Assembly: GCA_964385635.1 (NCBI GenBank) | Contig: CAYLPU010000011.1 | Coordinates: 133 to 64,132 of the forward strand | DNA: 64,000 nt | Source of the DNA: an uncultured Anaerolineales bacterium | Lineage (GTDB): Bacteria; Chloroflexota; Anaerolineae; B4-G1 | Reading direction: 5' to 3' | Part shown: in pieces, positions 12,795 through 60,663 of the stretch | Numbering within the stretch: position 1 is the stretch's first letter | How the letters are laid out: each line of letters opens with the position of its first letter | Translations under genes and position numbers: made by a program | Notes under the pieces: model-generated | What the model was told of the DNA's origin: nothing | The model's input: the letters and a program-made list of their open reading frames with translations, nothing else | The model's database searches: none

Positions 12795-15700
12795 TTGGTT
12801 GTCCCTGAGTTCACTCTCGTCCGTTCCAAACTGCTCGTGCCCAGCCCCTCCGGCCTATTGCATCGGCCGCGGGTGTGCCAGGCCATCGAGCGGGGGCTCG
12901 AGCGCAAGTTGACGCTTGTCTCTGCCCCGGCTGGCTACGGCAAGACCTCGGCGCTGGTGGATTTTGCGCAGCACAGCCCTGTGCCGGTGTGTTGGTACAC
13001 CGCCGACGAGCGCGACCGTGATCTGAGCGTGTTCATCGAGTACCTGGTGGGCGCGATTGGCGAGCGCTTCCGCGGCTTCGGCGGGCGAAGCCGCGCGGCG
13101 TTGGCTTCCCTGGCCGGTGATCTTTTCCACGACCCGACCGCTATTGTGGGAGAGTTGGTCAACGAGATGCTTGAGATTGACACATCCTTCGTCGTGGTGG
13201 TGGACAACTACGATGGACTGGACGGTGGCTTTGGTATCCGAACCTTCGTCCACCGTCTGCTTGAAATCCTGCCCTTCAATTGCCACCTGATGCTGGGTAG
13301 TCGTGTGTTACCCGACGTTCCTGTCGCACACCTGGTTGCCAAGCGCCAACTCGTCGGTCTGACGGCACGGGACCTGCGCTTCGCCTCCCAGGAGATCCGG
13401 GATCTTCTGCGATCATCGTGGGTTGAGGTGTCTGAAAGCCAGGCGGAAGCGATAGCTGCCAACTCCGAGGGCTGGATCACCGGTGTCCTGCTGCTGGCCG
13501 ATATGTTGCGCGACGAGAGTAAGGCTGCCCTGCTCGATGAGGAGATGGCCACTGCCGAGACGTACGGCTACCTGGCCAGTGAGGTCTTGAACCGGCAGCC
13601 GCCCGACATTCAGTATTTCCTATGCGTCTCGGCTGTGCTGCGTGAGATGTCGTCACGGCTGTGCCGCCAGGTACTGCAGATCAGGGAGTCGCTTGCTCTG
13701 CTGGCGGAGGTGGAGCGGCGTAGTCTCTTCGTCACCCGCTTTGGGAGAGGGGCTGCGGCGACCTATCGCTACCACAATCTGTTCCGTGATTTCCTGCACG
13801 AGCAGTTGCGCCAGCGCGATCCGGCCCGCTACACTGAACTGCACCTGCGCGCCGCGAAGCGGTTCGAGCGAGACGATGGGGTTGAGGAGGCAGTGTATCA
13901 CTATCTGGCAGCCGAGGACTATCCAGGCGCGACGACGCTGGTGGAGCGGGTGGCGATGGAGTGGTTCACGCGGGGGCGAGTCGAGACGCTCCTGCGCTGG
14001 GCGGAGGCACTGCCCGGGGAGGCCAGAGCCCAGGCTCCATGGCTGACGTTCTATCAGAGCAGGGTGCTCACCGATCGTTACGACTACGAGGGGGCGCAGC
14101 AGGCGCTGGCCCACGCCGAGGCCGGGTTCGCCGCCCGGAAAGATATGGCACGTCTGGCCAAGGTGCACAACCAGCGTGCGCTGCTGGGTTTCTTTGGAGG
14201 TCGCTACGAGGACACGATTGTGGAAGCACAGACGGCGCTGGACATGCTGGATCAGGACGAAGTAATGGAGCGGGCGGAGGCGCAGCGGCTTATCGGACTG
14301 GCCTATGTGGGACTTGGGCGTCTCGCTGAGGGGGTCGCCAAACTGCAGGAAGCGTTGGCTCTGTTTCGGAAGGTTGGCAGCCCCTACGATGTGGTCAACT
14401 TGTTGCGGGATTTGGTGCTCGCACTTACTGCTCAGGGATGCTTTGATGAAGCGGTCACCTGTGCAAGCGAGGCGTTGGCCGTTGGACGACGGTTGGGAGC
14501 GCCGACACAACTGGCTGGGGTGCTCAACGATGTGGGCTGCCTCCACTACGCTCGTGGGGAGTATCGGGAAGCGCTGGCACTATACGAGGAGGGGCTGGCG
14601 GCAGCGCGACGCGGGGGCGATTTGCGGTACCAGGCCTACATCTCGGTGGGGATGGCTGATGTCCACCGTGACGTTGGGGACTACGCGCGCGCTGAACCTC
14701 TGTACAACGCCGGCTGGCAGATGTCGCGGGAGGGCGAGCCGGGCCTGGCAGTCTATATCCTGGCAGCGCAGGCGGATATGAACCGCTGGCGGGGAGATCA
14801 TGCACAGGCGCTCGTTTTGTTGGGACAGGCGCGCCAGTTGGCTGAAGAAAAGGGGTTGGATTTTGAGGAGCGCGGGCCGCTGCTTGTGGCCGAGGGGATC
14901 GCGTTGGCCGAAAGCGGTGAGGTCGAAGCCGGTCTTCGTCTTCTCTCCGATGCTGTTCGTTTCCTGGGGCAGCGGCAGGCGAAGCGAGAGTTGGCCCGGG
15001 CCCGATTCCTGCTGGCCAGGACTTACTTTCTGGCTGGGGACAAGCCACATGCCGTTGCCGAGTTGCGCCGGGCGATGGATCTGGCGGACGAGATCGGCAC
15101 GCACCAGTTTGCGGTTGTGGAGGGGCAGCACGCCGAGGATCTGTTGGGACTTGGCGTCGCCGGGGGCATAGCGGATTGCCGTGCCATTGCTGAGAGGGTG
15201 CAACAGTTGAATGTCTTCGGGGAGGAGCAGGTGCAGGCCGGTGCAGAGGTGAAAGAAGGTACGGTGAGCCGCCTGGAGATCTATGCTCTTGGAGGGGGGC
15301 GGGTCGTCTACGATGGGCACACGGTCGCCTCATCCGAGTGGCAGGCGGCGATGGCTAAGGAGTTGTTCTTTTACATCCTCCTACATGGGCCTCTGGAGCG
15401 GGATGTTATTGGTTCAGTGTTCTGGCCCGATTTATCCGCGAAAAAGACGACCGACAGTTTCCACACCACGCTTTACCGGGTACGCCGCGCCTTGGGCGCC
15501 GAGGCCGTGGTGGTGGAGGAAGGGCGGTACCGGCTGGGCGACGTGGACTGCTGGTTCGACGTCGAGGAGTTTGAGGCGTCGGTCGAGCGGGCGCGGCTCT
15601 TACCGCCTCACGACTGGCGGACGGAGGACCTGTGGCGGCGTGCGGTGGCGCTCTACCGGGGAGATTTCCTGCCTGAGGTGGGGCGGGTGTGGTGTGTGCC

Positions 15701-16001
15701 GAAGCGGGAGGCGCTCCGGGAGCTGTACCTCGAGGCGTTGGTCGGGGTGGGACGATGCCACGAGGCGCGGAGGGAGTTTGAAGGGGCGATCGGCTGGTAC
15801 AGGCGGACCTTGGAGGTGGACGAACTGCGCGAGGACGTACATCGGCGCATCATGCACTGTTACGCCGAGGCAGGCCGGCGTTCTGAGGCGCTGGCTCAAT
15901 ACCACCATTGCCAGGAGATTCTCAGGCGGGAGTTGGATATCGAACCATCGGTTGAGACAAAGAGATTGTACGAACGGATCGCTGGAAAAAGGCCGGACTG
16001 A
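12795..16001 (+). CDS. Large STAND-type transcriptional regulator: MalT-like P-loop ATPase + TPR repeats + C-terminal winged-helix/BTAD (SARP-type) domain
   Basis: N-terminus LVRSKLLVPSP...RPRV...LTLVSAPAGYGKTS (Walker A). A central TPR-like A/L-rich region follows. C-terminus LEIYALGGGRVVYDG...WQAAMAKELFFYILLH...LYRVRRALG...YRGDFLPE...HRRIMHCYAEAGRRSEALAQYHHCQEILRRELDIEPSVETKRLYERI. Confidence 0.85.
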   Translation: MVVPEFTLVRSKLLVPSPSGLLHRPRVCQAIERGLERKLTLVSAPAGYGKTSALVDFAQHSPVPVCWYTADERDRDLSVFIEYLVGAIGERFRGFGGRSRAALASLAGDLFHDPTAIVGELVNEMLEIDTSFVVVVDNYDGLDGGFGIRTFVHRLLEILPFNCHLMLGSRVLPDVPVAHLVAKRQLVGLTARDLRFASQEIRDLLRSSWVEVSESQAEAIAANSEGWITGVLLLADMLRDESKAALLDEEMATAETYGYLASEVLNRQPPDIQYFLCVSAVLREMSSRLCRQVLQIRESLALLAEVERRSLFVTRFGRGAAATYRYHNLFRDFLHEQLRQRDPARYTELHLRAAKRFERDDGVEEAVYHYLAAEDYPGATTLVERVAMEWFTRGRVETLLRWAEALPGEARAQAPWLTFYQSRVLTDRYDYEGAQQALAHAEAGFAARKDMARLAKVHNQRALLGFFGGRYEDTIVEAQTALDMLDQDEVMERAEAQRLIGLAYVGLGRLAEGVAKLQEALALFRKVGSPYDVVNLLRDLVLALTAQGCFDEAVTCASEALAVGRRLGAPTQLAGVLNDVGCLHYARGEYREALALYEEGLAAARRGGDLRYQAYISVGMADVHRDVGDYARAEPLYNAGWQMSREGEPGLAVYILAAQADMNRWRGDHAQALVLLGQARQLAEEKGLDFEERGPLLVAEGIALAESGEVEAGLRLLSDAVRFLGQRQAKRELARARFLLARTYFLAGDKPHAVAELRRAMDLADEIGTHQFAVVEGQHAEDLLGLGVAGGIADCRAIAERVQQLNVFGEEQVQAGAEVKEGTVSRLEIYALGGGRVVYDGHTVASSEWQAAMAKELFFYILLHGPLERDVIGSVFWPDLSAKKTTDSFHTTLYRVRRALGAEAVVVEEGRYRLGDVDCWFDVEEFEASVERARLLPPHDWRTEDLWRRAVALYRGDFLPEVGRVWCVPKREALRELYLEALVGVGRCHEARREFEGAIGWYRRTLEVDELREDVHRRIMHCYAEAGRRSEALAQYHHCQEILRRELDIEPSVETKRLYERIAGKRPD

Positions 16002-16120
16002 GCGCATCGTTTTTCTCTCACCACGGAGCAACGCACAGGAGGTCGCTTAACGTCGCCGCGCCCCCGGCGTCCTCTGCGGTGAGATACGGGTAAGCACGAG
16101 AGAACTCGAACTTGATCTGT

Positions 16121-16144
16121 AGAGGCTGCCGCAGAGCAGCCTCT
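16121..16144 (+). terminator. Hairpin terminator candidate after the regulator gene
   Basis: AGAGGCTG (16121-16128), an 8-nt loop, then CAGCCTCT (16137-16144), followed by TTGCTT. Confidence 0.4.
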
Positions 16145-16200
16145 TTGCTTATCTGGTTGTCAGAGGTTCGTTCAGAGTTCTGTGCTATCCTTATGCTGAA

Positions 16201-16242
16201 TTTGGGGCGGGTCGTACTAGATTTTGGGCGGGTTTGGGCGGG
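16201..16242 (+). repeat. Three direct repeats TTTGGG(G)CGGG immediately upstream of the small-ORF RBS
   Basis: TTTGGGGCGGG at 16201-16211, TTTGGGCGGG at 16223-16232 and TTTGGGCGGG at 16233-16242. Repeat starts are spaced 22 and 10 nt apart. The RBS AAGGAGGG follows directly. Confidence 0.6.
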
Positions 16243-16255
16243 AAGGAGGGTAACG

Positions 16256-16450
16256 ATGGAGAACGTACGTGGTAAGCTGGCCTTGGCGCTGATGACGTTT
16301 ATGCTGCTCCTGGTGCTGGCTCTTGGGCCTGCGGCCCCTGGCGCGGCTGCTCGGATGGCGGAGCCCCAGGCTGGTGCGGTGGAAGTGTTGGACGGGCTGC
16401 ATGGCCTGTTGGCAAGCCCGCATGGCGGCGGCAGCAGTGGTGGGGGGTAG
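16256..16450 (+). CDS. Small pre-peptide with N-terminal signal/TM segment and Gly/Ser-rich C-terminus (64 aa)
   Basis: ATG 16256 lies 6 nt after GGAGGG. MENVRGKLALALMTFMLLLVLALGPAAPGAAARMAEPQAGAVEVLDGLHGLLASPHGGGSSGGG. The stop TAG abuts the next ATG. The track ORF 16112..16450 is the over-extended version. Confidence 0.4.
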   Translation: MENVRGKLALALMTFMLLLVLALGPAAPGAAARMAEPQAGAVEVLDGLHGLLASPHGGGSSGGG

Positions 16451-16660
16451 ATGATGTCAACACGAAGGATTGATGAGTTGGTCTGGACGGCCTTCACCGA
16501 TTCCGCTTTCCGCGAGCGGTTACTCAACGGTCATCGCCGCGAGGTGTTGACCACTCTCAGTCTCACGGAGGCGGAACGGCGGGTCGTGCTGGCGGTGAAG
16601 GCCGACACGCTGGAGGCGTTCGCCGGGGAGCTCTGCCAGCCGGGGTTCGTTGGGGCCTAG
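16451..16660 (+). CDS. NHLP-like (Os_1348-type) small helical protein, RiPP-leader-like
   Basis: 69 aa. ELVWTAFTDSAFRERLLNGHRREVLTTLSLTEAERRVVLAVKADTLEAFAGEL matches the A..D..FR..LL....L....LT..E......L..FA..L pattern of NHLP-clan proteins as I recall it. The start codon abuts the preceding stop. Confidence 0.45.
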   Translation: MMSTRRIDELVWTAFTDSAFRERLLNGHRREVLTTLSLTEAERRVVLAVKADTLEAFAGELCQPGFVGA

Positions 16661-16843
16661 GATGCCACACTTCTGAATGTGGCTGTGGCCCTTATGCGTG
16701 GTGGCTCCCTGGGGGTGTAGGACACGCCCGTGTCGCAGGCGGGGATGTGTAGGCGGGGCGCGTTCATTCTGGCGGCTAGGGGACAGCGCACATAGTGTAG
16801 CGAAAGGAGGGCCTATACGAGGGCGGAGAAAGGTATTGTCACA

Positions 16844-17071
16844 TTGAGAGTCGAGACACTTACGGAGGCTATGTTTTCCCTGGATGAGCCCTGGCGAGGC
16901 CGGTTCCTGGACCTGGTGGCCAACCTGGCCACGGGAGAGATGTGGGACGGGGGGCGGCGGCCGGGGCGGGAAGAGGTGACGGCTTGGCTGGGGACCGACT
17001 ATGGCCTATACCAGGAAATGATGGTGCTGGTGGACGCGTGGCGGCGGCCGAGAGTAGGAAGGTTGCCATAG
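16844..17071 (+). CDS. Hypothetical small protein
   Basis: An ORF only, with a TTG start, no recognisable family and a weak RBS. An internal ATG (MFSLDEPW) is possible. Confidence 0.2.
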   Translation: MRVETLTEAMFSLDEPWRGRFLDLVANLATGEMWDGGRRPGREEVTAWLGTDYGLYQEMMVLVDAWRRPRVGRLP

Positions 17072-17233
17072 CCTCCTGGTGGGTTCAATTGTATAAGCGT
17101 CACTTGTGCCAGCAGGTGCTGCCTCTGACCGGGGTCAGTGTAGGTGTACTTGTAGGTCCAGGCAAGTCCAGAGTTGGGCTGTGCCTGTTCTGTGTGTGCA
17201 TCATGTCTTGCGTTTTTGCTTCCGGTAGGGTGG

Positions 17234-18649
17234 CTAATACGCGCCGTCTCCAAACAACACCTCGGGGATGGTACGCAGTAAGATCTTGAAATCAAGCCAT
17301 AGTGACCAGTTTTCAATGTAGTAAATATCGAGCAGCACACCGTCATCGAAACTGAGCAGGCTGCGGCCGCTGACCTGCCACAATCCGGTCATTCCTGGGC
17401 GTGCTTCCAGCCGCTTTTTGTGCCATTCCATGTAGCGGCTGACCTCGACCGGGAGGGATGGGCGTGGTCCCACCAGGCTCATCTCTCCGCGTAATACGTT
17501 CCACAGTTGTGGTAGTTCATCGAGGCTGGTGTGCCGCAGAAACCGGCCCACGCGAGTCAGGCGCGGGTCGTCGCGGATTTTGAAGAGAGGGCCGTCGGCC
17601 TCGTTCAGTTCGCGCAATTGCTCCAACTCCGCTTCGGCTCCCTCGTGCATTGAGCGAAACTTGTAACATTCGAACGTCTTTCCGCCCGCTCCCACGCGGG
17701 TCTGGCGGAAGACGATTGGGCCGGGTGAGTTGATCCGGGTGGCCAGCGCGATCAATGCCAGGAGCGGGGCCCCTAGCGTCAGTCCCACCAGTGCGCCAAA
17801 GACGTCCATGCCTCGCTTGACCAGCAGGGTTCCCTGTCCGAAGCCAACCTCCCGCACGCCAATCAGTGGCACGCCACCCAAATCGTCCACGTCCACGTGG
17901 CTGAGACTCATCTGGAAGAGATCGGGCACGATATGGGCGCTCACTTGCCGCCGCTCGCACTCCCGTACGATGGCCATGATCTTGCGGTGGTACATCCACG
18001 GTAACGTTACGATGACTTCATCTACTGCTTCTTTCTCGATCATCTGTGCCAGATTGTTTACCGGTCCCAACGCTTTAAAGCGCCCGATGTCGGTCTGGCC
18101 TTTCTGCGGGTTATCGTCTACGAAGCCAACGATCTGATAGCCCAGTTCGGGCCGTGCCACGATGGTACGCATCACTGTGCGTCCTACCTCACCAGCCCCG
18201 ACGATGATAAGGCGGACCATCCCGATGCCGCGAGAGCGCAGCCAGCCCAGGATCATGTTCTGCATCATCCGCGATACGGCCAGCAAGATGATCGCAATGA
18301 TGCCCGCCTCAATGAGCAACAGGCGTGAGTATTGACGGGGCTGGAGGACAAAGGTGACGGCCAGCATCACCACCACGGATTTAGCCGTGGCGTTGATGAC
18401 GCGATAGACCTGATCGAGCCAAGGTTGCCCGCGTTGGTGTTGGTAGACGCGGTCCATTTGGAAAGCCAGCAGCATCAGCACGGTGAACAGGAAGCCAAAG
18501 GAGGCGTAGGCCGATAGTGAGTGATAGTAATTGATGTCGAGGAACCATTGCAGTTCGTAGCGCACCCAGTAGGCCAGCGACATGCTGGCGTTGATCAGCA
18601 GGATGTCGGAGATGATGACCCACCAGGAAGCCTGCCTGCGTGTTCTCAT
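17234..18649 (-). CDS. Exopolysaccharide polyprenyl glycosylphosphotransferase (bacterial sugar transferase, WbaP/WcaJ-like)
   Basis: N-terminal TM helices, a central NAD-like domain and a C-terminal SLDELPQLWNVLRGEMSLVGPRP...PGMTGLWQVSGRS. Confidence 0.9.
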   Translation of the reverse strand: MRTRRQASWWVIISDILLINASMSLAYWVRYELQWFLDINYYHSLSAYASFGFLFTVLMLLAFQMDRVYQHQRGQPWLDQVYRVINATAKSVVVMLAVTFVLQPRQYSRLLLIEAGIIAIILLAVSRMMQNMILGWLRSRGIGMVRLIIVGAGEVGRTVMRTIVARPELGYQIVGFVDDNPQKGQTDIGRFKALGPVNNLAQMIEKEAVDEVIVTLPWMYHRKIMAIVRECERRQVSAHIVPDLFQMSLSHVDVDDLGGVPLIGVREVGFGQGTLLVKRGMDVFGALVGLTLGAPLLALIALATRINSPGPIVFRQTRVGAGGKTFECYKFRSMHEGAEAELEQLRELNEADGPLFKIRDDPRLTRVGRFLRHTSLDELPQLWNVLRGEMSLVGPRPSLPVEVSRYMEWHKKRLEARPGMTGLWQVSGRSLLSFDDGVLLDIYYIENWSLWLDFKILLRTIPEVLFGDGAY

Positions 18650-19818
18650 GTTTCTCCCTCTTCGGCCAGGGCGCGCCGGTACGCACGCGCTGTCTCTCGT
18701 GCGGTGTGCGGCCAGGTGAACCGTCTGGCGTGGGCCAGACCGCGCGTTCGCAACCTGTCCCGCAACGGTTCATCCGTCAGTAGCCGGTTCAGCCCCTCCG
18801 CCAGTGCTTCTACGTCGTGCGGATCGACTGTCAAGGCTGCGTCGCCGGCTGCCTCAGGCAACGAAGATGCGTTCGAGGTCAGCACAGGCGTACCACAGGC
18901 TAGCGCTTCCAGTACCGGTAACCCAAATCCTTCGTATAGCGAGGGGTAAACCAAAGCCAAAGCAGCATTGTACCACAGCGGTAATTCGTCGTTCGGAACA
19001 TAGCCAGGAAACAAGACATCTTGGTCCAGGGCCAGCGCTTCTACCCTGGCAAATAATCTGTCGTAGAGCCAGCCTCTGCCGCCAGCCAGCACCAGTTTCA
19101 CTGGCCCCCGGCTCGCTGCTTCTTGTCTCCTGAATTGAGCAAAGGCCTCTACCAGCCGTACCAGATTCTTGCGTGGTTCCAGTGTGCCCACGAATAGCAC
19201 AAACCGCTCTGGTAGCCCCTGGTGCTGGCGGAAGGTCTCTACCGCAGCGGTTGGTAGCGGGCGGAAAGCCGGTTCCACCCCGTGATAGATGATGTCAATC
19301 CGCTCTGGCGGGATGCCCAGCAGCCGTGTGATCTCAGTGGCAGTGTGGGCTGAGACGGCGATAAGCCGCCGGGCGCGACGTGCCGAAAGTTGTGTCAGCA
19401 CCTTCAGGTAGAGCCGGTTGGCGGGGCGGAACAGGGTGGGGAAACGGATGAAGCTCAGGTCATGGATGGTGACGATCGCCGGGCAGGGGGTGAGTAAAGG
19501 GCCGATGAAGACGGGCCCATGCACCAGGTCTGCCCCGATCTGCTTTAGCGTCCAGGGTTGTGCCAGTTGCTCCCACATCACTCGCGCCGCCGCTCTGCTC
19601 GTGGGCCAGCGAGACTGGAGTGATCTGAGGGCAACGTCTGGAGGAAGTACGCCCTCGCCCAGCAGAACGGTATAACGCAGCCCGCCATTGGCCTGCCTTA
19701 GATGGCATAGCAGATGGTAGATGTACCGGTGTACGCCCGCGCTGCGATACCAGGCCCGACCTGAGAGAAGGTGTGCGTTGATGGCAACGTGAAAACCATT
19801 CCCTGCGGTGCCTCTCAT
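18646..19818 (-). CDS. Glycosyltransferase family 4 (GT-B, GT1 domain)
   Basis: VYPSLYEGFGLPVLEALACGTPVLTSNASSLPE. It overlaps the downstream sugar transferase start by 4 nt. Confidence 0.9.
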   Translation of the reverse strand: MRGTAGNGFHVAINAHLLSGRAWYRSAGVHRYIYHLLCHLRQANGGLRYTVLLGEGVLPPDVALRSLQSRWPTSRAAARVMWEQLAQPWTLKQIGADLVHGPVFIGPLLTPCPAIVTIHDLSFIRFPTLFRPANRLYLKVLTQLSARRARRLIAVSAHTATEITRLLGIPPERIDIIYHGVEPAFRPLPTAAVETFRQHQGLPERFVLFVGTLEPRKNLVRLVEAFAQFRRQEAASRGPVKLVLAGGRGWLYDRLFARVEALALDQDVLFPGYVPNDELPLWYNAALALVYPSLYEGFGLPVLEALACGTPVLTSNASSLPEAAGDAALTVDPHDVEALAEGLNRLLTDEPLRDRLRTRGLAHARRFTWPHTARETARAYRRALAEEGET

Positions 19819-21110: not shown

Positions 21111-24100
21111 ATGATTGAGATTTCCCTTGAGGAGTATTGTGAGCAGATTGAGAGCGCGATTGAGCAGGGCCGTTATGCGGAGGCCGTAGCCCATGGAAAG
21201 CATGTCCTGAGGCACTACTCCAAACACGTGGCAACCTATCGGCTGCTGGGTACGGCAATGCTCGAAGCCGGCCAGGATGAGTACACTGTCGATATGTTTC
21301 GCCGCGTGCTTAGCGCTGATCCTGAAGACATGCTCGCATGGGCGGGGATGAGCGAAGTGCACAACCGGCGTAGTGAGATTGACGCGGCAGCGTGGTGTCT
21401 GGAGCGGGCATTCGAACTGGCTACCGAGAACAAGGTGGTGGAGGAGGAATTATGCCACCTATATGGCCGGCGAGATGGCGTTGAAGCCCAGCGGGTCCAA
21501 CTCACCCGTGGCGCGCTGGCCCGGCTCTACCTGAGGGGCGATTTGCTCTCGCGGGCGATCGGCGAATTCCGTGCCCTGCTGGCTGAGCATCCCGAACGGG
21601 TGGACCTCAGCATTGCGCTGGCTGAGGCGCTCTGGCGCAACGATCAGCGATTGGAGGCGTCGGAGGTCTGCCAGCAGGTGCTGGATATGCTGCCCTACTG
21701 CCTCAAGGTCAATTTGATCCTGGGGGAAATCTGGAACAGCAGTGGTCGAGAGGAAGGACAGATGTACCTGCGGCGGGCCGAGGCCCTGGACCCGGAGAAC
21801 AAGGTAGCGCAGGAACTCTTCGGGGATGCATCACCGCTGCCAGCACGAGAAGTGCGGATCGTTCCCCTGGAGTATCAGCCCCCGATCAAGGAGGAGCTCC
21901 CGGCCTGGATGGCTGAGGTGGAGGCCGTATCGGCAGAGGGGCCACCGCTGACCGAGCGTGAGGCCGCGTTGGTTGACGTCGCGGCAGCGCTGGAGGCGCA
22001 GATTGAGATTCCTTCCTGGTTGGAGGAGATCGGCCTGAGCGAGGAGGCCCCTGCAACTGTACCGCCTGTTACCACCCCTACTGGGCCGTCGGAAGAGCAA
22101 TTGCCAGAGGAAGCGGTTCCCGCTCCAGCAGAGGAAGCCCCTGAGTGGCTGGCAGGCATCCGTGAAGAGTTGGTGGAGGAAAGACCGGAGGCGGTGGTCG
22201 AGGAAGAGACTCCCGAATGGTTGTCTGGACTTGGTATGGAGTCAATCGGTGAGGAGGACATCTTGGAACGGCTGTCTGAGCTGGATGTTGGGCCCACTGG
22301 TGAGGAGGAAGCGCCGGCGGTCTTGGAAGAGAAGGAGGTTCCGGAGTGGCTATCTGGATTGGGTGCCGAGGTAGCCGGTGAGGAAGCAGTCCCTTCTACT
22401 CCGCCCGCAGGAGAGTCTTCAGATTGGCTGGCCAGCCTGCGCGAGCAGTTTGTCGAAGAGGTAGAAGCGCTGGAGGAAACACCTGCCCCTGTAGCCGAGG
22501 AGGTGCCTAAGCCGGCCTGGTTGGAGGGTGAGGGGTTGCCTTCTGGTGACGAGGCGCTGGAGTGGCTGGAGCGACTGGCAGAGGGCGAAGAGGAAAAACT
22601 GCGCGTCCAGGCTGAAGCGGAGGCCGAGGTCCGCGTGGCCGAAATCGAAGAGGCGGTGGTGGAGGAAGCCGTAGCCCCTCCAGTTGGGGAGGCTGCTGTT
22701 CCCCAGGCCGAGGCAGGGTTCGGCTGGACGGCGTTCGGTGAGCCTGGGGCTCCGCCCGAGGCTGCCCCAGCGGTGGAGGAGATCCCGCCAGTGGAAGTAC
22801 CAGAGGAGATGGATATCCCTGCCCCTGTAGCCGAGGAGGTGCCTAAGCCGGCCTGGCTGGAGGGCGAGGGGTTGCCCTCTGGTGATGAGGCGCTGGAGTG
22901 GCTGGAGCGACTGGCAGAGAGCAGAGAGGAAAAACTGCGCGTCCAGGCTGAAGCGGAGGCCGAGGTCCGCGTAGCCGAGATCGAAGAGGCGGTGGTGGAG
23001 GAAGCCTTAGCCCCTCCGGTTGGGGAGGCTGTCGTTCCCCCGGCCGAGGCAGGGTTCGGCTGGACGGCGTTCGGTGAGCCTGGGGCTCCGCCCGAGGCTG
23101 CCCCAGCGGTGGAGGAGATCCCGCCAGTGGAAGTACCAGAGGAGATGGATATCCCTGCCCCTGTAGCCGAGGAGGTGCCTAAGCCGGCCTGGCTGGAGGG
23201 CGAGGGGTTGCCCTCTGGTGATGAGGCGCTGGAGTGGCTGGAGCGACTGGCAGAGAGCAGAGAGGAAAAACTGCGCGTCCAGGCTGAAGCGGAGGCCGAG
23301 GTCCGCGTAGCCGAGATCGAAGAGGCGGTGGTGGAGGAAGCCTTAGCCCCTCCGGTTGGGGAGGCTGTCGTTCCCCCGGCCGAGGCAGGGTTCGGCTGGA
23401 CGGCGTTCGGTGAGCCCGAGCCACCTCCCGTGGTCGAAGAGGCTCCGCAAGCGGAACCGGCTTTCGGTTGGACGGCCTTTGGCGAACCAGAGGCTCCGCC
23501 CGAGGCTATTCCGACGGCAGAGGCGGTAGAGGAGGCTTTGCCAGTAGAGGAAGAGGTCGTCCTTCCTGAGGTCTTGGAACAGGTGCTCCCGGAGGAGGTG
23601 AAGGCTCCGCCTACGGCGGAGGCGCCGGTGGTGGAGGAGAGACTCCCGTCTGAGGAGATCCTTGCACCGGAGGTAGTACCGCTCACGGAGGAGATGCGTT
23701 GGGGGGCTGTGCTGGAGGTATCGTTGGAGGAGGCGGAAGTGGCTTCAGCCCCGGTAATCGAGGAAGTGCCAGGCATGCCTGAGATGGAGATAACGGAACC
23801 GCTTGAGGAGGCCGCAGCACCACCAGAAATCCCGACCTTCGAGGTTCCTGCTGAGCCCTTCGCCGCCGAGCGGGCTCATCTGAAGGAGCATCCGCGCGAT
23901 TACGAAGCCTGGCTAGCGCTGGCGCGGGCGCTGTGGCAGGCTGGTGAGCAACAAGAAGCATTGGAAGCCTATACCCGTGTTATCCGCGTTGGTAAGTTTC
24001 TCGAGAGCGTGGTCCCGGACCTGGAAGAGTATGTGGAGCAGGAGCTCGACGTCAGCGCACAGCGTTTACTGGGTGACGCTTACATGAAAGACGGGCGGTT

Positions 24101-24146
24101 GCAGGATGCGTTGGACATCTACCGCCGGGCATTGGAGACTCTGTAA
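21111..24146 (+). CDS. TPR-repeat protein with long acidic repetitive middle region (PEWL/GFGWTAFGEP motifs)
   Basis: TPR-like helices occur at both ends (YAEAVAHGKHVL..., ...DYEAWLALARALWQAGEQQEALEAY). The centre is E/A/P/V-rich with recurring xPEWLxGL motifs and 112-aa tandem repeats. Confidence 0.85.
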   Translation: MIEISLEEYCEQIESAIEQGRYAEAVAHGKHVLRHYSKHVATYRLLGTAMLEAGQDEYTVDMFRRVLSADPEDMLAWAGMSEVHNRRSEIDAAAWCLERAFELATENKVVEEELCHLYGRRDGVEAQRVQLTRGALARLYLRGDLLSRAIGEFRALLAEHPERVDLSIALAEALWRNDQRLEASEVCQQVLDMLPYCLKVNLILGEIWNSSGREEGQMYLRRAEALDPENKVAQELFGDASPLPAREVRIVPLEYQPPIKEELPAWMAEVEAVSAEGPPLTEREAALVDVAAALEAQIEIPSWLEEIGLSEEAPATVPPVTTPTGPSEEQLPEEAVPAPAEEAPEWLAGIREELVEERPEAVVEEETPEWLSGLGMESIGEEDILERLSELDVGPTGEEEAPAVLEEKEVPEWLSGLGAEVAGEEAVPSTPPAGESSDWLASLREQFVEEVEALEETPAPVAEEVPKPAWLEGEGLPSGDEALEWLERLAEGEEEKLRVQAEAEAEVRVAEIEEAVVEEAVAPPVGEAAVPQAEAGFGWTAFGEPGAPPEAAPAVEEIPPVEVPEEMDIPAPVAEEVPKPAWLEGEGLPSGDEALEWLERLAESREEKLRVQAEAEAEVRVAEIEEAVVEEALAPPVGEAVVPPAEAGFGWTAFGEPGAPPEAAPAVEEIPPVEVPEEMDIPAPVAEEVPKPAWLEGEGLPSGDEALEWLERLAESREEKLRVQAEAEAEVRVAEIEEAVVEEALAPPVGEAVVPPAEAGFGWTAFGEPEPPPVVEEAPQAEPAFGWTAFGEPEAPPEAIPTAEAVEEALPVEEEVVLPEVLEQVLPEEVKAPPTAEAPVVEERLPSEEILAPEVVPLTEEMRWGAVLEVSLEEAEVASAPVIEEVPGMPEMEITEPLEEAAAPPEIPTFEVPAEPFAAERAHLKEHPRDYEAWLALARALWQAGEQQEALEAYTRVIRVGKFLESVVPDLEEYVEQELDVSAQRLLGDAYMKDGRLQDALDIYRRALETL
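22482..23416 (+). repeat. 336-bp (112-aa) tandem repeat, about 2.8 copies, inside the TPR gene
   Basis: Unit starts (cctgcccctgtagccgagg) are at 22482, 22818 and 23154. Copies 2 and 3 are identical over 263 bp (23154..23416) by direct reading. Copy 1 differs at scattered positions. Confidence 0.9.
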
Positions 24147-54027: not shown

Positions 54028-56832
54028 TTGTCCACTCCAACCGAATCCAAAACCCGAAAAGATCTCATTGATCCCGCCTTGGAAAAAGCAGGATGGGGGA
54101 AGGTCGGCGAATCTGACCTGATTGGCATCGAAATCCCCGTGGACGGGTTCGATCCCCGGGCGTGGGAGGTACTTGAGGCCAGGCTGAGGCGCTTGGGCGA
54201 GGCTGGTCTTTCCTACGACGTCGATCTGCCCGAAGGCGTCAGCGATTACGTCCTCTACCGTCCCAACGGCGAGATCATCGCCGTGGTAGAGGCCAAACGC
54301 ACCAGCGTTGATCCCCGGCTGGCCCAGGCCCAGGCTGAGTTCTACGTCACCGAACTCGAGAAGCAGCAGAGTTTCCGCCCCTTCGCCTTCATGACCAACG
54401 GGTACGACATCTACTTCTGGGACGTGGGCCGGGCCAACAAACGATTGGTGTACGGTTTCTTTTCCCCCGCCGATCTGGCCAATCTGCTCTACAGCCGGCA
54501 GAACCAGACACCCCTGACCGAGGCCCCGATCGACACCGCCATCACCGATCGCGTGTATCAGCAAGAGAGCATCCGCCGGGTGTGTGAGGCCTTTGAGCAG
54601 GGTAAGCGCAAGGTCTTGCTGGTGATGGCTACCGGCACCGGCAAGACCCGCGTAGCGATGTCGCTGGTAGACATCTTCCTGCGCACCAACCAGGCGCGGC
54701 GGATTCTGTTCGTCGCCGACCGGGATGCGCTGGTAAAACAAGCCGAGACGGAGGGATTTCACGATCATATCCCGGATGAACCCTGCACCCGCATCTACAC
54801 CCACAGAATTGATAAGACGAACCGTCTCTACGTCGTCACGCTGCAGACGCTGAGCAAGTGCTTCGAACAGTTTACGCCCGGCTTCTTTGACCTGATCATC
54901 TTCGACGAAGTCCATCGCTCCATTTTCAACAAGTGGAACGAGGTGCTCCACTACTTCGACGGTCGTATGATTGGGCTGACCGCCACTCCTGCTGACTTCA
55001 TTGACCGCAACACCTTTCTCGAGTTCGAGTGCCACGACGAGACGCCGACCTTCCTGTATGAGTACGACGACGCGATCAGAGACGGCTACCTGGTTGACTA
55101 CAGCCTATACGCGGCGCGGACGAGGTTCCAGCGCCAGGGCATCCGGGGCGTTGACCTGAGCGAGGAGGAGCGTTACGCCCTGATTGAGCAGGGACTGGAT
55201 CCCGATAACATTGACTTCTCCGGCACCGATCTGGAGAAGAACGTCAGCAACCGCGACACGCTGCGCAAGCAGTGGGAAGAGATCTGGGAAGTCTGTCACA
55301 AAGACAAATCGGGGCAACTTCCTGGCAAGACGATCGTCTTTGCCATGACCCAGAAGCACGCCCTGCGCCTGGCGGATGTGTTCGAGGAGATGTATCCCCA
55401 ATATCCCGGCCTGGTGCAGGTGATCACCTGTAAGTCTGAGTATAAAGGCACGCTGATCAAGAAGTTCAAGAAGAAGAGTCTGCCCCGTTTCGCCATCTCT
55501 GTAGACATGCTGGAGACCGGGGTGAATGTGCCGGAGGTGGTCAACCTGGTCTTTATGCGGCCAATCCATTCCCGGATCAAACTAGAGCAGATGATCGGCC
55601 GGGGCACCCGCAGCCACGCGACCTGCAAACACCCAGAATGGTTACCCGATGGTCACAAGAAGGAGTTCCAGATCATTGACTTTTGGGAGAACGACTTCAG
55701 TAAACGTCCGCAGGAGCAAGTGGCCCAGAGCCTGCCGGTGCTGGTGACCATCTTCAACACCCGCCTCAAGTTGTTGGAACTATACCTGGCAGATCAGCAA
55801 TCGGACGATGCCCGGTGGGTGATCGCCGACTTGCGCGCCCAGATCGCGCTTATCCCCATCGATTCCTTCTCGGTCAAGCGGGTCTACCCCGAGATCAAGC
55901 GGGCCTGGCAGGACTCGTTCTGGCGCTACCTCACCCCGGACAGGCTAACGTTTCTCAGGCTGAAGGTAGGGCCGTTGCTGCGGTATGCACCGGGCGTGGA
56001 CGTGCAAGCGGCCACGTTTACCAGCAAGGTGGAGCGGCTGAAGCTCCAAATCCTGACTGGCCGAGACCCCTCCGCCACAGCCCAATCCATCGCCGAGGAC
56101 GTCAGCCGGTTGCCGGAGTTCGTCTACGAAGATTCGCAGCGCGAGCGGGCCGCCAGGCTGTGCCTCACGCCCCAGTTGCAAACGGCCACCGTGGCTCAAC
56201 TGAACCAGGTGATTGAAACACTGGCCGACCAGATGAAGAACCGGCGAGCCAAGCCCAACACCTTCCTGGAGCTCGACCTGCCCGACTTCGTCGAAATGCG
56301 CGGCTACATCTTGCTATACGGCGGCAGCCAGCCGGTGTACGTCGAGGAGTACCGCCAGCGCGTCGAGCAGCGAATTCTCGACCTGGCCGCCGACCATCCC
56401 ACCGTCGAGGCCATTGATCGCGGCGAACCGGTCACGGACCTGCAATTGATCGAACTGGAACGCACCTTGCGGCAGGAGTTGGGCGGCGGCGACGTGGAAC
56501 TATCGGAACCCAACATTCGGAAAGCGTACGGGCTCAAGGTGGGCAGCCTGCTGGAGTTTCTGCGTCGCCTGCTGGAAATCGAGGGCATCCCCGATTATGG
56601 TGACATCGTGCGCCGCCAGTTCGAAGGATACATCGCCGGGCATCCCTTCAACGGGGATCAGATCCGCTTCCTGCGAGTGGTGCAGAACGTCTTCTTGCAA
56701 AGACGCCGCCTGGAATTGGCCGATCTGTACGGACCACCGCTGACCCGCTTCGGCCAGGATGCGGTCGAGCGGTTGTTCACTACGGAAGAAGTGAGTCAAG
56801 TGCTGGAATTCGTTGACTCACTGACTGTGTAG
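54028..56832 (+). CDS. hsdR: Type I restriction enzyme R subunit (EcoEI-type C-terminal domain)
   Basis: TTG start. N-terminal nuclease region DYVLYRPNGEIIAVVEAKR. Helicase motifs MATGTGKT and FDEVHRS. A long helical C-terminus. Confidence 0.9.
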   Translation: MSTPTESKTRKDLIDPALEKAGWGKVGESDLIGIEIPVDGFDPRAWEVLEARLRRLGEAGLSYDVDLPEGVSDYVLYRPNGEIIAVVEAKRTSVDPRLAQAQAEFYVTELEKQQSFRPFAFMTNGYDIYFWDVGRANKRLVYGFFSPADLANLLYSRQNQTPLTEAPIDTAITDRVYQQESIRRVCEAFEQGKRKVLLVMATGTGKTRVAMSLVDIFLRTNQARRILFVADRDALVKQAETEGFHDHIPDEPCTRIYTHRIDKTNRLYVVTLQTLSKCFEQFTPGFFDLIIFDEVHRSIFNKWNEVLHYFDGRMIGLTATPADFIDRNTFLEFECHDETPTFLYEYDDAIRDGYLVDYSLYAARTRFQRQGIRGVDLSEEERYALIEQGLDPDNIDFSGTDLEKNVSNRDTLRKQWEEIWEVCHKDKSGQLPGKTIVFAMTQKHALRLADVFEEMYPQYPGLVQVITCKSEYKGTLIKKFKKKSLPRFAISVDMLETGVNVPEVVNLVFMRPIHSRIKLEQMIGRGTRSHATCKHPEWLPDGHKKEFQIIDFWENDFSKRPQEQVAQSLPVLVTIFNTRLKLLELYLADQQSDDARWVIADLRAQIALIPIDSFSVKRVYPEIKRAWQDSFWRYLTPDRLTFLRLKVGPLLRYAPGVDVQAATFTSKVERLKLQILTGRDPSATAQSIAEDVSRLPEFVYEDSQRERAARLCLTPQLQTATVAQLNQVIETLADQMKNRRAKPNTFLELDLPDFVEMRGYILLYGGSQPVYVEEYRQRVEQRILDLAADHPTVEAIDRGEPVTDLQLIELERTLRQELGGGDVELSEPNIRKAYGLKVGSLLEFLRRLLEIEGIPDYGDIVRRQFEGYIAGHPFNGDQIRFLRVVQNVFLQRRRLELADLYGPPLTRFGQDAVERLFTTEEVSQVLEFVDSLTV

Positions 56833-56855
56833 CAGACCTGCCAGGTCCGAGTAAA

Positions 56856-56919
56856 TTGCCCTTCTTTGGATATTGTGGTACAATGTGATAAAGCGTTGTT
56901 TTTGTGATCTTTTCACAAA
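56856..56919 (+). promoter_or_regulatory. Internal promoter (-35 TTGCCC, extended -10 TGgTACAAT) plus 7-5-7 palindrome TTTGTGA-N5-TCACAAA upstream of the ATPase gene
   Basis: TTGCCC at 56856-56861, 17 nt, then TGGTACAAT at 56876-56884. The palindrome arms are at 56901-56907 and 56913-56919, between the promoter and the RBS AAGGAGAAGG. Confidence 0.4.
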
Positions 56920-56948
56920 TAGACACAATTATAATCAAGGAGAAGGCC

Positions 56949-58262: not shown

Positions 58263-58881
58263 ACCGAGCGGGCGTGAATACTTGCCGGACAAGGGCCGGC
58301 CATTGGGACGCCGCCAGGTCAATGTGCGCCCCCCGCGGCCTCGGTTCCTGATCGTGTGTGAGGGGAGCAAAACCGAGCCGAACTACTTTCGGCGCTTTCG
58401 CATCAACATCGACGTGGTGGACCTGAATGTGATCGGATTGGGAGACCACACGTTGAGCCTGGTGCAACGCACCTGCGAGTTGATGCGGCAGGGCGACTAT
58501 GCACAGGTCTGGTGCGTCTTTGACCGCGACAGCTTCCCCGCCGAGCGGTTCAACGAAGCCCTCAACCAGGCCCGGCTGCATGGCATCCGAACCGCCTATT
58601 CCAACGAAGCCTTTGAACTCTGGTATCTGCTCCACTTTGATTACCACGACACCGCCCAATCGCGCACGCGCTACCAACAGATGCTTACCCAACGACTGGG
58701 AAAGCCATATCGGAAAAACGCTCCCGATATGTACAACCTGCTCAAAGAACGGCAAACGGATGCCACTCGCAACGCCCTGCGGCTGCTTGATTCCTACGGC
58801 CCCAACCACAACCCGGAGCGTGACAATCCCTGCACGACCGTGCATCAATTGGTGGAAGAACTGAATCGCTGCGTTCGCTGA
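58246..58881 (+). CDS. RloB-like protein
   Basis: ATG 58246 overlaps the ATPase gene by 17 nt. FLIVCEGSKTEPNYF...VWCVFDRD...YSNEAFELWYLLHF. The track ORF 58024..58881 is over-extended. Confidence 0.85.
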   Translation: MARKPKPSGREYLPDKGRPLGRRQVNVRPPRPRFLIVCEGSKTEPNYFRRFRINIDVVDLNVIGLGDHTLSLVQRTCELMRQGDYAQVWCVFDRDSFPAERFNEALNQARLHGIRTAYSNEAFELWYLLHFDYHDTAQSRTRYQQMLTQRLGKPYRKNAPDMYNLLKERQTDATRNALRLLDSYGPNHNPERDNPCTTVHQLVEELNRCVR

Positions 58882-58904
58882 ATCTCTCGTTGTCATAGTG
58901 AGGT

Positions 58905-60614: not shown

Positions 60615-60663
60615 GGAAGTAAGAGATCTTCTTGGTTACCTTGAAGTAGAGTGAGACACTAAA

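What the first reader, a model, noticed from the sequence alone, without database searches (positions are those of the whole stretch)
16121..16660. TPR-containing STAND/BTAD regulator followed by a signal-peptide pre-peptide and an abutting NHLP-like ORF: candidate peptide-signalling or orphan RiPP module
About 250 bp downstream of the 1068-aa ATPase-TPR-wHTH/BTAD regulator, after a hairpin, a strong RBS precedes a 64-aa ORF. That ORF has a classic n-h-c signal region and a Gly/Ser-rich tail (...LLASPHGGGSSGGG). Its TAG stop directly abuts the ATG of a 69-aa NHLP-like helical protein ending CQPGFVGA. A TPR receptor-regulator with a small exported peptide encoded just downstream on the same strand is the RRNPP quorum-sensing layout (PlcR/PapR, AimR/AimP). 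As far as I know that layout has been described only in Firmicutes and their phages. Alternatively the pair are RiPP precursor-like genes, but no maturation enzyme lies within 10 kb.
Basis: inference. Interest (0 to 1): 0.62.

Follow-up and report, generated by a model that had tools for sequence, protein, structure and literature searches.

The report
Regulator with three-small-gene target operon
A large ATP-dependent switch regulator in an uncultured salt-lake Anaerolineae bacterium sits next to a conserved promoter and three tiny genes (an exported peptide and two small helical proteins), a module kept together in over 45 related genomes whose function nobody has studied.

Summary
The 64-aa and 69-aa ORFs exist as described, are conserved, show coding-type substitution patterns, and lie in metatranscriptome contigs 5-8 times deeper than the regulator gene.

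- a third conserved small gene, ORF3 (16844-17071);
- a conserved promoter: two 8-mers GT(T/C)CAGAG with a 12-bp period, 8 bp upstream of an extended -10, with no -35.

The regulator's C-terminus is a full SARP domain homologous to that of AfsR. Regulator, promoter box and small genes stay together in 20 of 22 loci found from ORF2, and in 26 of 29 found from the regulator's DNA-binding domain. All are Anaerolineae or other Chloroflexota.

Best reading: an AfsR-to-afsS-like circuit. The STAND-TPR-SARP activator switches on a small operon. Its first product looks Sec-exported, with a C-terminal unit (GLLAxPxxGGGS..) that is tandemly multiplied in two species.

It is not an RRNPP member, because the receptor architecture differs. 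A peptide feedback loop remains possible (about 0.2). The RiPP reading is weakened:
- ORF2 is a conserved, apparently folded helical protein with no variable core;
- it scores below threshold for the Os1348/NHLP clan;
- no maturation enzyme recurs across more than 50 loci, and none lies in the 64-kb window.

The parts
12795..16001 (+). REG: 1068-aa regulator. MalT-like STAND NTPase (about residues 1-400), TPR sensor (about 400-830), C-terminal SARP domain (winged helix plus BTAD, about 830-1068).
   Evidence: Orthologues at 55-81% identity over the full length lie next to the cassette in other loci.
16121..16154 (+). Intrinsic terminator of REG: 9-10-bp GC-rich stem (16121-16144) plus a T-rich tail.
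   Evidence: Conserved with compensatory changes: 5 of 10 pairs, 96.5% of cells paired.
16158..16177 (+). Predicted activator box: two direct 8-mers, TGTCAGAG and GTTCAGAG, with a 12-bp period, placed where a -35 would be.
   Evidence: It occurs once in the window; 0.01 matches are expected by chance. In 32 distinct promoter variants the period is 12 bp in 32 of 32, and the gap to the -10 is 8 bp in 30 of 32.
16183..16191 (+). Extended -10 element TGC-TATCCT. The transcription start is predicted near 16198.
   Evidence: A TGn extension is present in 31 of 32 variants. The start site is inferred, not measured.
16243..16250 (+). Shine-Dalgarno sequence AAGGAGGG for ORF1.
   Evidence: AAGGAGG is conserved in nearly all loci.
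16256..16450 (+). ORF1: 64-aa pre-peptide. Residues 1 to about 32 look like a Sec signal. Residues 33-64 (RMAEPQAGAVEVLDGLHGLLASPHGGGSSGGG) are the putative exported part, with the conserved C-terminal unit GLLAxPxxGGGS..
   Evidence: The unit is tandemly repeated in L019 and L021.
16451..16660 (+). ORF2: 69-aa (or 68-aa from 16454) helical protein of the NHLP/Os1348 clan, with an invariant Cys62 in FAGxLCQP and a short variable tail.
16844..17071 (+). ORF3: 75-aa four-helix protein of an unnamed family. The motif is LxEALFSLDEPWRGRFLxLVA.
   Evidence: It is fused to an IrrE/M78-like domain in some relatives.

Best explanation
This is a self-contained regulatory module of Anaerolineae-type Chloroflexota.

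Proposed mechanism, in order:
1. REG acts as an ATP- and ligand-gated switch of the STAND/NLR type, with a TPR sensor.
2. When switched on, its C-terminal SARP domain binds as a tandem pair to the two direct repeats at 16158-16177.
3. The repeats replace the -35 element and sit 8 bp from an extended -10. REG recruits RNA polymerase there.
4. This transcribes the three-gene operon ORF1-ORF2-ORF3. The logic is the same as AfsR activating its adjacent small gene afsS.
5. ORF1 is exported through Sec and cleaved near residue 32. This releases a peptide of about 30 residues whose functional unit is the C-terminal GLLAxPxxGGGS.. segment.
6. ORF2 and ORF3 stay in the cytoplasm as small helical proteins and pass the signal on by protein binding.

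Shown here: the anatomy, the conservation, the synteny, coding-type selection on all three ORFs, and the presence of the cassette in metatranscriptome assemblies.

Inferred: REG binding to the box, the transcription start, export and cleavage of ORF1, and the roles of ORF2 and ORF3.
For: 1. Synteny from both sides.
- A REG orthologue lies upstream of ORF2 in 20 of 22 informative loci found with ORF2.
- ORF2, with ORF1 and ORF3 where enough DNA is present, lies downstream in 26 of 29 loci found independently with REG's DNA-binding domain.

2. Promoter.
- There are 32 distinct variants.
- All have two 8-mers GTT[C/A/T]A[G/T]A[G/A] at a 12-bp period.
- 30 of 32 have exactly 8 bp between the 3' repeat and the -10.
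- 31 of 32 have a TGn extension.
- The box occurs once per locus, always between the REG terminator and ORF1, and once in the 64-kb window.
- Known SARP targets have direct repeats with the 3' repeat 8 bp from the -10 (PMC10936776, read).
- AfsR dimerises on a repeat motif in the promoter of afsS, a small regulatory-protein gene (bioRxiv 10.64898/2026.09.02.748808).

3. REG's last 249 aa align with the whole AfsR SARP domain.

4. The box is kept even where the cassette has moved away from REG (L003/L012).

5. Expression.
- Metatranscriptome contigs from relatives (most at 90-95% identity) span ORF1 to ORF3 in one piece.
- Their depth is 17-34, against 2.4-3.7 over the 3' end of REG in X26 and X27 (no REG coverage in X25).

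6. ORF1.
- The n-region, h-region and small-x-small architecture is conserved in about 90% of loci.
- Its C-terminal unit is triplicated in L021 and repeated in L019. That pattern fits a released peptide.

7. All three ORFs show an excess of third-position substitutions.
Against: - No binding, start-site or export data exist.
- The repeat period is 12 bp, not the 11 or 22 bp of characterised SARP boxes.
- The module is split in a few genomes:
  - the cassette lacks an adjacent REG in L003/L012 and L010;
  - a full REG lacks the cassette in L032.
- ORF1 is degenerate in L009, L010 and L029, where it lacks a signal region. It may therefore be dispensable.
- Signal-peptide cleavage was judged only by a home-made heuristic, not by SignalP.
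- The RNA evidence comes from assembled contigs of related strains, and contig depth is a poor measure of expression.
- One 92-nt contig (X32) covers 16165-16256, upstream of the predicted start.
- ORF2 and ORF3 have no significant structural analogue. Their proposed 'adaptor' role is a guess.
Confidence: 0.6

Rival explanations
1. Peptide autoinduction, working like RRNPP quorum sensing. The exported ORF1 peptide is processed outside the cell and re-imported. It binds the TPR sensor of REG, which then changes transcription of its own operon. This extends the best explanation rather than replacing it.
For: - The layout is receptor, then signal-peptide pre-peptide on the same strand, with the receptor-type box in front of the peptide gene.
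- The conserved unit of ORF1 is C-terminal and is multiplied in L019 and L021.
- ORF1 diversifies sharply among REGs that are at least 76% identical. Types seen are 'DGLHGLLA', 'GLSEQ..PC', others, and degenerate forms. ORF2 and ORF3 stay conserved.
- REGs paired with the two main ORF1 types differ mostly within TPR residues about 500-640. The excess divergence there is 4.75 times that of the rest of the protein, against 0.75-1.9 times in four control splits.
Against: - The receptor is not an RRNPP protein.
- No oligopeptide permease or processing protease is in the window or recurs in the loci.
- The co-variation rests on a single evolutionary split with few sequences.
- One control split also shows a local rise in the same region.
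- Genomes with degenerate ORF1 keep REG, ORF2 and ORF3.
- STAND sensors usually bind intracellular ligands.
Confidence: 0.2
2. Orphan RiPP precursors. ORF2 (an NHLP-clan leader with a short Cys-containing core, ALCQPGFVGA), and perhaps ORF1, are modified by enzymes encoded elsewhere in the genome. REG is the pathway-specific SARP activator.
For: - ORF2 hits NF038399 (Os1348 family, NHLP clan; E 1.8e-5) and PF14407 (E 0.01).
- Many ORF2 homologues carry a precomputed PF14407 hit.
- Cys62 is invariant and sits just before a variable tail.
- One to three tandem ORF2 copies occur in L007, L008, L016 and L030.
- SARP regulators typically control biosynthetic clusters (PMC10936776).
- Os1348 of Pseudomonas sp. 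Os17 sits beside GNAT, HEXXH and SagB-like genes (PMC7726476).
- The multi-unit ORF1 forms resemble multi-core precursors.
Against: - Both HMM scores are below the curated cut-offs (24.8 against 40; 16.5 against 48).
- There is no hit to the NHLP model itself.
- There is no Gly-Gly leader end followed by a hypervariable core.
- ORF2 is 66-88% identical along its whole length and predicted to be a five-helix fold.
- Some homologues end at ...ALCQI or ...CQPGF.
- The type-B paralogues have no tail at all.
- No cyclodehydratase, LanM, radical-SAM maturase, C39 exporter or any other enzyme recurs next to the cassette in more than 50 loci, and none is in the 64-kb window.
- Even for Os1348 the precursor role is unproven.
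Confidence: 0.15
3. Sec-dependent small bacteriocin (ORF1) with cytoplasmic helical immunity proteins (ORF2 and/or ORF3), under a dedicated activator.
For: - A signal-peptide pre-peptide is followed directly by small helical-bundle proteins in one operon.
- ORF1 diversifies rapidly among close relatives.
Against: - The putative mature peptide is acidic and Gly-rich. It lacks the cationic, amphipathic character of pore-forming peptides (sequence).
- ORF2 and ORF3 are far more conserved than immunity proteins usually are.
- ORF1 is lost in some loci while ORF2 and ORF3 remain.
Confidence: 0.05
4. The small ORFs are chance open frames in GC-rich intergenic DNA.
For: High-GC DNA yields many spurious ORFs. 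Several overlap this region on the minus strand.
Against: - Conserved protein sequences occur in more than 50 loci.
- Substitutions are in excess at third codon positions.
- Each has a conserved RBS.
- AlphaFold models are confident for ORF3 (pLDDT 88.6) and moderate for ORF2 (pLDDT 77).
Confidence: 0.01

Closest known systems
AfsR and its adjacent target afsS (Streptomyces 'large SARP' / NLR-type regulator)
   Same: - The same three domain types are present: SARP, STAND NOD and TPR.
- The SARP domains are homologous.
- The target is a small gene on the same strand just downstream of the regulator.
- The target promoter has tandem direct repeats in place of a good -35, with the 3' repeat 8 bp from the -10.
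   Different: - The domain order is permuted: NOD-TPR-SARP here, SARP-NOD-TPR in AfsR.
- The NOD here is MalT-like rather than NB-ARC-like.
- The repeat period is 12 bp rather than 11.
- The target is a three-gene operon that starts with an exported peptide.
- None of the three products resembles AfsS.
- The phylum is Chloroflexota, not Actinomycetota.
MalT (E. coli STAND transcription activator)
   Same: The N-terminal 560 residues align with MalT positions 2-557 (E 1.6e-73). Pfam finds a MalT-like TPR region.
   Different: - The score (248 bits) is far below the equivalog cut-off (537).
- The C-terminal LuxR-type HTH is replaced by a SARP domain.
- There are no maltose-regulon genes nearby.
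RRNPP peptide quorum sensing (PlcR/PapR, AimR/AimP/AimX, Rap/Phr)
   Same: - A cytoplasmic TPR-containing transcription factor is encoded next to a small signal-peptide pre-peptide.
- The conserved part of the pre-peptide is C-terminal.
- Small downstream genes could be the output, as with aimX.
   Different: - The receptor is three times larger, has a STAND ATPase, and has a SARP rather than an N-terminal XRE-type HTH.
- There is no homology beyond generic TPRs.
- No Opp permease link is seen.
- The host is not a Firmicute.
- Sensing of the peptide is untested.
Os1348 of Pseudomonas sp. Os17 / PF14407 'Frankia_peptide' / NHLP clan
   Same: - ORF2 and its type-B paralogue match NF038399 (E 1.8e-5 down to 5.8e-7).
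- The best, though non-significant, fold match of the ORF2 model is the Os1348 crystal structure 6lk7 (TM about 0.5, E 4.4).
- All are small all-helical proteins.
   Different: - Scores are below threshold.
- Os1348 is 85 aa and is encoded with GNAT, HEXXH and SagB-like genes. None of these is present here.
- ORF2 has no NHLP-type Gly-Gly site or variable core.

Membership tests
RRNPP quorum-sensing systems | Receptor is an HTH (or phosphatase) domain fused to a TPR peptide-binding domain, with no NTPase and a size of about 300-450 aa. | tested here: not met
   REG is 1068 aa. It has a MalT-like STAND NTPase, TPRs and a C-terminal SARP domain.
RRNPP quorum-sensing systems | An adjacent small gene encodes a Sec-exported pro-peptide. 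| tested here: inconclusive
   The n-region, h-region and small-x-small architecture is conserved in about 90% of ORF1 homologues. This rests on a heuristic only. SignalP was not available and there are no export data.
RRNPP quorum-sensing systems | A mature 5-10-aa peptide is re-imported by Opp and binds the receptor's TPR. | not testable with these tools
   No Opp genes are in the window. The only hint is TPR-localised divergence between REGs paired with different ORF1 types.
NHLP-type RiPP precursor (TIGR03793 and clan) | The HMM match is above the curated cut-off. | tested here: not met
   NF038399 scores 24.8 bits against a cut-off of 40. PF14407 scores 16.5 against 48. NHase_alpha has E 0.22. 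The NHLP model itself gives no hit at E <= 1.
NHLP-type RiPP precursor (TIGR03793 and clan) | The leader ends in Gly-Gly (or Gly-Ala) and is followed by a hypervariable core peptide. | tested here: not met
   ORF2 is conserved up to FAGxLCQP. Only 5-8 variable residues follow, and they are absent in some homologues and in the type-B paralogues.
NHLP-type RiPP precursor (TIGR03793 and clan) | Co-located maturation enzymes (cyclodehydratase, LanM or radical SAM) and a C39-peptidase ABC exporter. | tested here: not met
   None is in the 64-kb window. None recurs across more than 50 loci. Enzymes elsewhere in the genome cannot be excluded.
Large SARP regulators (AfsR type) | A SARP domain, meaning an OmpR-type winged helix plus BTAD. 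| tested here: met
   PF03704 scores 88.9 bits. The AfsR SARP structures align over query residues 9-245 (E 2e-6).
Large SARP regulators (AfsR type) | Additional STAND NOD and TPR domains. | tested here: met
   There is a MalT-like NOD with Walker A and B motifs, plus TPR_12 and TPR_MalT hits.
Large SARP regulators (AfsR type) | Domain order SARP-NOD-TPR, with an NB-ARC-type NOD. | tested here: not met
   The order here is NOD-TPR-SARP, and the NOD is MalT-like.
Large SARP regulators (AfsR type) | The target promoter has direct repeats at an 11- or 22-bp period, with the 3' repeat 8 bp from the -10. | tested here: inconclusive
   The 8-bp distance is met in 30 of 32 variants. The period is 12 bp in 32 of 32. 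Binding was not tested.
MalT family | A full-length equivalog match including the C-terminal LuxR-type HTH. | tested here: not met
   The score is 248 bits against a cut-off of 537. Only MalT positions 2-557 are matched, and the C-terminus is a SARP domain.

The most novel reading that the evidence does not exclude
The exported C-terminal ORF1 peptide is an autoinducer read by the TPR sensor of a STAND-ATPase/SARP transcription factor. This would be a cytoplasmic-receptor peptide quorum-sensing circuit that evolved independently of RRNPP, in filamentous Chloroflexota. ORF2 and ORF3 would be its small-protein output.
Probability: 0.2. Interest if true: 0.8.

Novelty: new variant of a known kind. 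Interest (0 to 1): 0.55.

Why it matters
Anaerolineae are abundant in sediments, seeps, salt lakes and digesters. They are mostly uncultured, and almost nothing is known about how they regulate genes or communicate.

What the module offers:
- a predicted operator-promoter for a STAND/NLR-type bacterial transcription factor outside Actinomycetota;
- a permuted 'large SARP' architecture;
- a defined, tiny regulon that can be tested directly by EMSA, DAP-seq or a reporter.

If the exported peptide proves to be the ligand of the TPR sensor, this would be peptide quorum sensing with a cytoplasmic receptor outside Firmicutes. It would also be a rare case where the activating signal of a bacterial NLR-like regulator is known.

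If ORF2 proves to be modified instead, it would define a RiPP-like family whose enzymes are unlinked to the precursor.

Either way, three unnamed small-protein families gain a context.

Tried and rejected
1. Stop-codon read-through or fusion of ORF1 with ORF2. The first four loci were all in frame, but over 24 loci only about 11 are. The gaps range from 0 to 22 nt and all three stop codons are used. Rejected.

2. The three TTTGGGCGGG repeats (16202-16242) as the regulator's operator. They lie in the 5'UTR and are absent from all other loci. There is no significant fold. Rejected as a conserved element.

3. An 11-bp repeat period. I first miscounted it. A systematic count gives 12 bp.

4. ORF3 as a third NHLP-like paralogue. 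hhalign gives a probability of 0.3%. Rejected. The type-B paralogue is truly homologous to ORF2 (98.7%).

5. Fold searches against the PDB gave no significant match.
- ORF2: best hit is Os1348, E 4.4.
- ORF3: best E is 3.4.
- PDB sequence searches gave only a weak nitrile hydratase alpha hit for ORF2 (E 0.18) and nothing for ORF3.

6. A PDB sequence search with the M78-like fusion protein gave only chance hits.

7. Rfam on 15900-17400 gave no hit.

8. The exact ORF2 protein is not on record in the contig index.

9. A literature search for 'Franean1_4349' found nothing. Searches on NHLP plus Chloroflexi found nothing on this module.

10. A Gly-rich ORF1 tail arising only as a by-product of the ORF2 Shine-Dalgarno sequence. 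This is partly plausible. However, the GGGS unit also occurs internally in the L021 repeats, and in L002 the SD lies after the stop.
Full report
**1. What is in the sequence**

- REG is at 12795-16001 (+) and encodes 1068 aa.
- It has Walker A (APAGYGKTS) and Walker B (VVVVDNYD) motifs.
- Its first 560 residues align with MalT (E 1.6e-73, below the equivalog cut-off).
- TPRs follow, and BTAD covers residues 921-1062.
- Its last 249 residues align over their whole length with the SARP domain of AfsR cryo-EM structures (8hvr, E 2e-6). The C-terminus is therefore a complete winged-helix plus BTAD module.

Downstream of REG (254 bp between its stop and the ORF1 ATG):
- A GC-rich hairpin with a T-rich tail lies at 16121-16144.
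- The RBS AAGGAGGG is at 16243-16250.
- ORF1 is at 16256-16450 (64 aa).
- ORF2 follows, with its ATG (16451) abutting the ORF1 TAG. It ends at 16660 with CQPGFVGA. Homologues start 'MPTR', so the second ATG at 16454 may be the real start.

**2.

*A third small gene.* ORF3 (16844-17071, 75 aa) is conserved in every locus that has enough DNA.

*A strongly conserved promoter* between the hairpin and ORF1. Its consensus is GTTCAGAG-GTTT-GTTCAGAG-N8-TATNCT. Across 32 distinct variants:
- the two 8-mers have a 12-bp period in 32 of 32;
- the 3' repeat is 8 bp from the -10 in 30 of 32;
- the -10 carries a TGn extension in 31 of 32;
- there is no -35.

In the window these elements are:
- the box at 16158-16177;
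- the extended -10, TGC-TATCCT, at 16183-16191.

The box occurs once in 64 kb. The REG terminator hairpin is itself conserved: 96.5% of cells are paired and 5 of 10 pairs show compensatory changes. The three TTTGGGCGGG repeats in the window's 5'UTR are specific to this genome.

**3. Are the ORFs real?**

- ORF2 has 147 homologues of about 68 aa at 66-88% identity. All named sources are Anaerolineae or Chloroflexota MAGs.
- The ORF3 family has 186 representatives among 1.84 billion proteins. Almost all are stand-alone proteins of 60-140 aa.
- ORF1 is rarely called by annotators (8 clusters). It is nonetheless present upstream of ORF2 in nearly every locus.
- Pairwise substitutions concentrate at third codon positions in all three ORFs.
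- The window comes from a salt-lake metagenome organism.
- Metatranscriptome contigs of relatives (most at 90-95% identity) span ORF1 to ORF3 in single pieces of 636, 845 and 1209 nt. Their depth is 17-34, against 2.4-3.7 on the 3' end of REG in X26 and X27 (no REG coverage in X25). The uneven depth argues against DNA carry-over. These are assembled contigs, so they do not fix a start site.

**4. Synteny**

From the ORF2 side: a scan of one genome per species found 24 loci, all Anaerolineae, Thermoflexia or other Chloroflexota. Adding loci from exact-protein look-ups, 20 of 22 informative loci have a full-length REG orthologue (55-80% identity) just upstream.

From the REG side: a metagenome scan with REG's DNA-binding domain found 32 loci. 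Of the 29 with at least 500 nt downstream, 26 carry ORF2, together with ORF1 and ORF3 where enough DNA is present.

Exceptions:
- L003/L012 and L010 have the cassette, box included, without an adjacent REG.
- L032 has a full REG (80% identity) with no cassette.
- L058 and L061 have only partial REG-like matches.

Other neighbours are not conserved, with one exception. A convergent phosphoglycosyl transferase plus GT4 pair recurs in 13 loci including the window. No RiPP enzyme, C39 exporter or Opp system recurs. None lies anywhere in the window.

**5. The three products**

*ORF1.* All but a few homologues share four features:
- one to four K/R residues at the start;
- a ~16-residue hydrophobic core (mean Kyte-Doolittle score about 3);
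- a G/P break;
- a small-x-small site near residue 30-32.

The middle region varies. The C-terminus always ends in a Gly-rich tail containing Ser or Thr (GGGSSGGG, GGGSSAT, GGGSGA...). In many loci DGLHGLLA(D/S/N)P precedes it.

In L021 the unit GLLANPPVGGGSSAT occurs three times in tandem. L019 has at least three such units. This singles out the C-terminal unit as the functional peptide.

Among REGs that are at least 76% identical, ORF1 takes several forms: the 'DGLHGLLA' type, the 'GLSEQ..PC' type, other types, a truncated form, or none. ORF2 and ORF3 stay conserved in the same loci.

*ORF2.*
- It scores below threshold against NF038399 (Os1348 family, NHLP clan; E 1.8e-5, 24.8 bits against 40) and PF14407.
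- It is predicted to form five helices (pLDDT 77).
- Its best, non-significant, fold match is the Os1348 crystal structure.
- Os1348 is a helical dimer of uncertain function, encoded with GNAT, HEXXH and SagB-like genes (PMC7726476).
- Sixteen positions are invariant, including Cys62. Only the last 5-8 residues vary.

*ORF3.* The model is a confident four-helix fold (pLDDT 88.6) with no PDB analogue. It is unrelated to ORF2.

*Extended cassettes.* Some relatives add two components:
- A type-B ORF2 paralogue, homologous to ORF2 at 98.7% hhalign probability. It has no C-terminal tail.
- An IrrE/M78-like domain (PF06114, 28-31 bits against a cut-off of 22). It is fused to or adjacent to the ORF3 domain. 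Its HExxH motif appears to be replaced by RELYV; this is read from the sequence and was not aligned to the model.

The window carries the minimal version.

**6. Mechanism**

Established SARP targets carry direct repeats with the 3' repeat 8 bp from the -10 (PMC10936776). [quoted passage not shown] By my own recollection, which I did not check in a paper here, afsS lies directly next to afsR.

The module here has four matching features:
- a homologous SARP domain;
- STAND and TPR domains;
- a box in the same position;
- small target genes immediately downstream.

I therefore commit to this model. REG is a ligand- and ATP-gated activator of the ORF1-ORF2-ORF3 operon. ORF1 is exported and cleaved. 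ORF2 and ORF3 act in the cytoplasm. My confidence in the composite model is about 0.6, and in the regulator-to-operon link alone about 0.8.

The differences from AfsR are the permuted domain order, the MalT-like NOD, the 12-bp period and the unrelated products.

**7.

*RRNPP.* Membership fails on receptor architecture. An RRNPP-like mode of working, with peptide feedback onto the TPR, remains open. One weak hint favours it. REGs paired with the two main ORF1 types differ almost only within TPR residues about 500-640. The excess there is 4.75 times that of the rest of the protein, against 0.75-1.9 times in four control splits. This is a single evolutionary split with few sequences. I give the feedback model about 0.2.

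*RiPP.* This reading is weakened by three observations:
- ORF2 is conserved throughout and predicted to fold;
- ORF2 lacks a leader/core boundary;
- no linked enzyme appears in more than 50 loci.

It keeps about 0.15 for three reasons:
- Cys62 is invariant;
- ORF2 occurs in tandem copies;
- the clan similarity holds, and enzymes could be unlinked.

**8. Novelty and score**

I found no paper describing this module. It is a new variant of a known kind: a large-SARP/STAND activator with an adjacent small target. It has a new domain order, a new phylum, a predicted operator and three unnamed small-protein families. Interest is 0.55.

Noticed in passing
window 16202-16242: Three G-rich direct repeats (TTGGGGCGGG, then TTTGGGCGGG twice, at spacings of 22 and 10 nt) lie in the predicted 5'UTR just before the ORF1 RBS. 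They are absent from all related loci. There is no significant secondary structure and no Rfam hit. A G-quadruplex or a recent local expansion is possible.
   Followed up: partly
window 17234-19818 (-): A phosphoglycosyl transferase (Bac_transf plus CoA_binding_3) and a GT4 glycosyltransferase run convergent to the cassette. They are conserved neighbours in 13 loci. This could be inherited gene order or a functional link, for example glycosylation of the Ser/Thr-containing ORF1 tail. Untested.
   Followed up: partly
L006, L007, L008, L016, L018, L022, L025, L028, L031, L033, L036, L039, L044: Extended cassettes carry a second NHLP-like paralogue ('type B', about 66 aa, no tail). They also carry an IrrE/M78-like domain that is fused to, or lies beside, the ORF3 domain. 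Its HExxH motif appears to be replaced by RELYV, so it looks like a pseudo-protease.
   Followed up: partly
L021 7693-7953; L019 from 7581: ORF1 homologues made of three or more tandem GLLA(S/N)PPxGGGSSAT units after the signal region. This is a multi-unit precursor layout.
   Followed up: partly
window 21111-24146 (+): A 1011-aa very acidic protein with TPRs at both ends and three near-identical internal repeats of about 110 aa (…PAPVAEEVPKPAWLEGEGLPSGDEALEWLERLAE…).
   Followed up: no
window 54028-61866 (+): A type I restriction-modification system.
- HsdR: 54028-56832
- HsdM: 58905-60614
- HsdS: 60664-61866

An AAA_21/AbiEii-like ATPase gene (56904-58262) is inserted between hsdR and hsdM.
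   Followed up: no
L001 (CP070814.1): Gene boundaries are spaced by exactly 101 nt, and there are runs of N. This suggests that the 3-Mb 'contig' is a concatenation of MAG fragments, so the truncated 171-aa REG there is an assembly artefact.
   Followed up: no
L032 4250-7747: A full-length REG orthologue (80% identity) has no box or cassette downstream. A 1064-aa surface-type protein on the opposite strand follows instead. This is the counterpart of L003/L012, where the cassette and box occur without an adjacent REG.
   Followed up: partly
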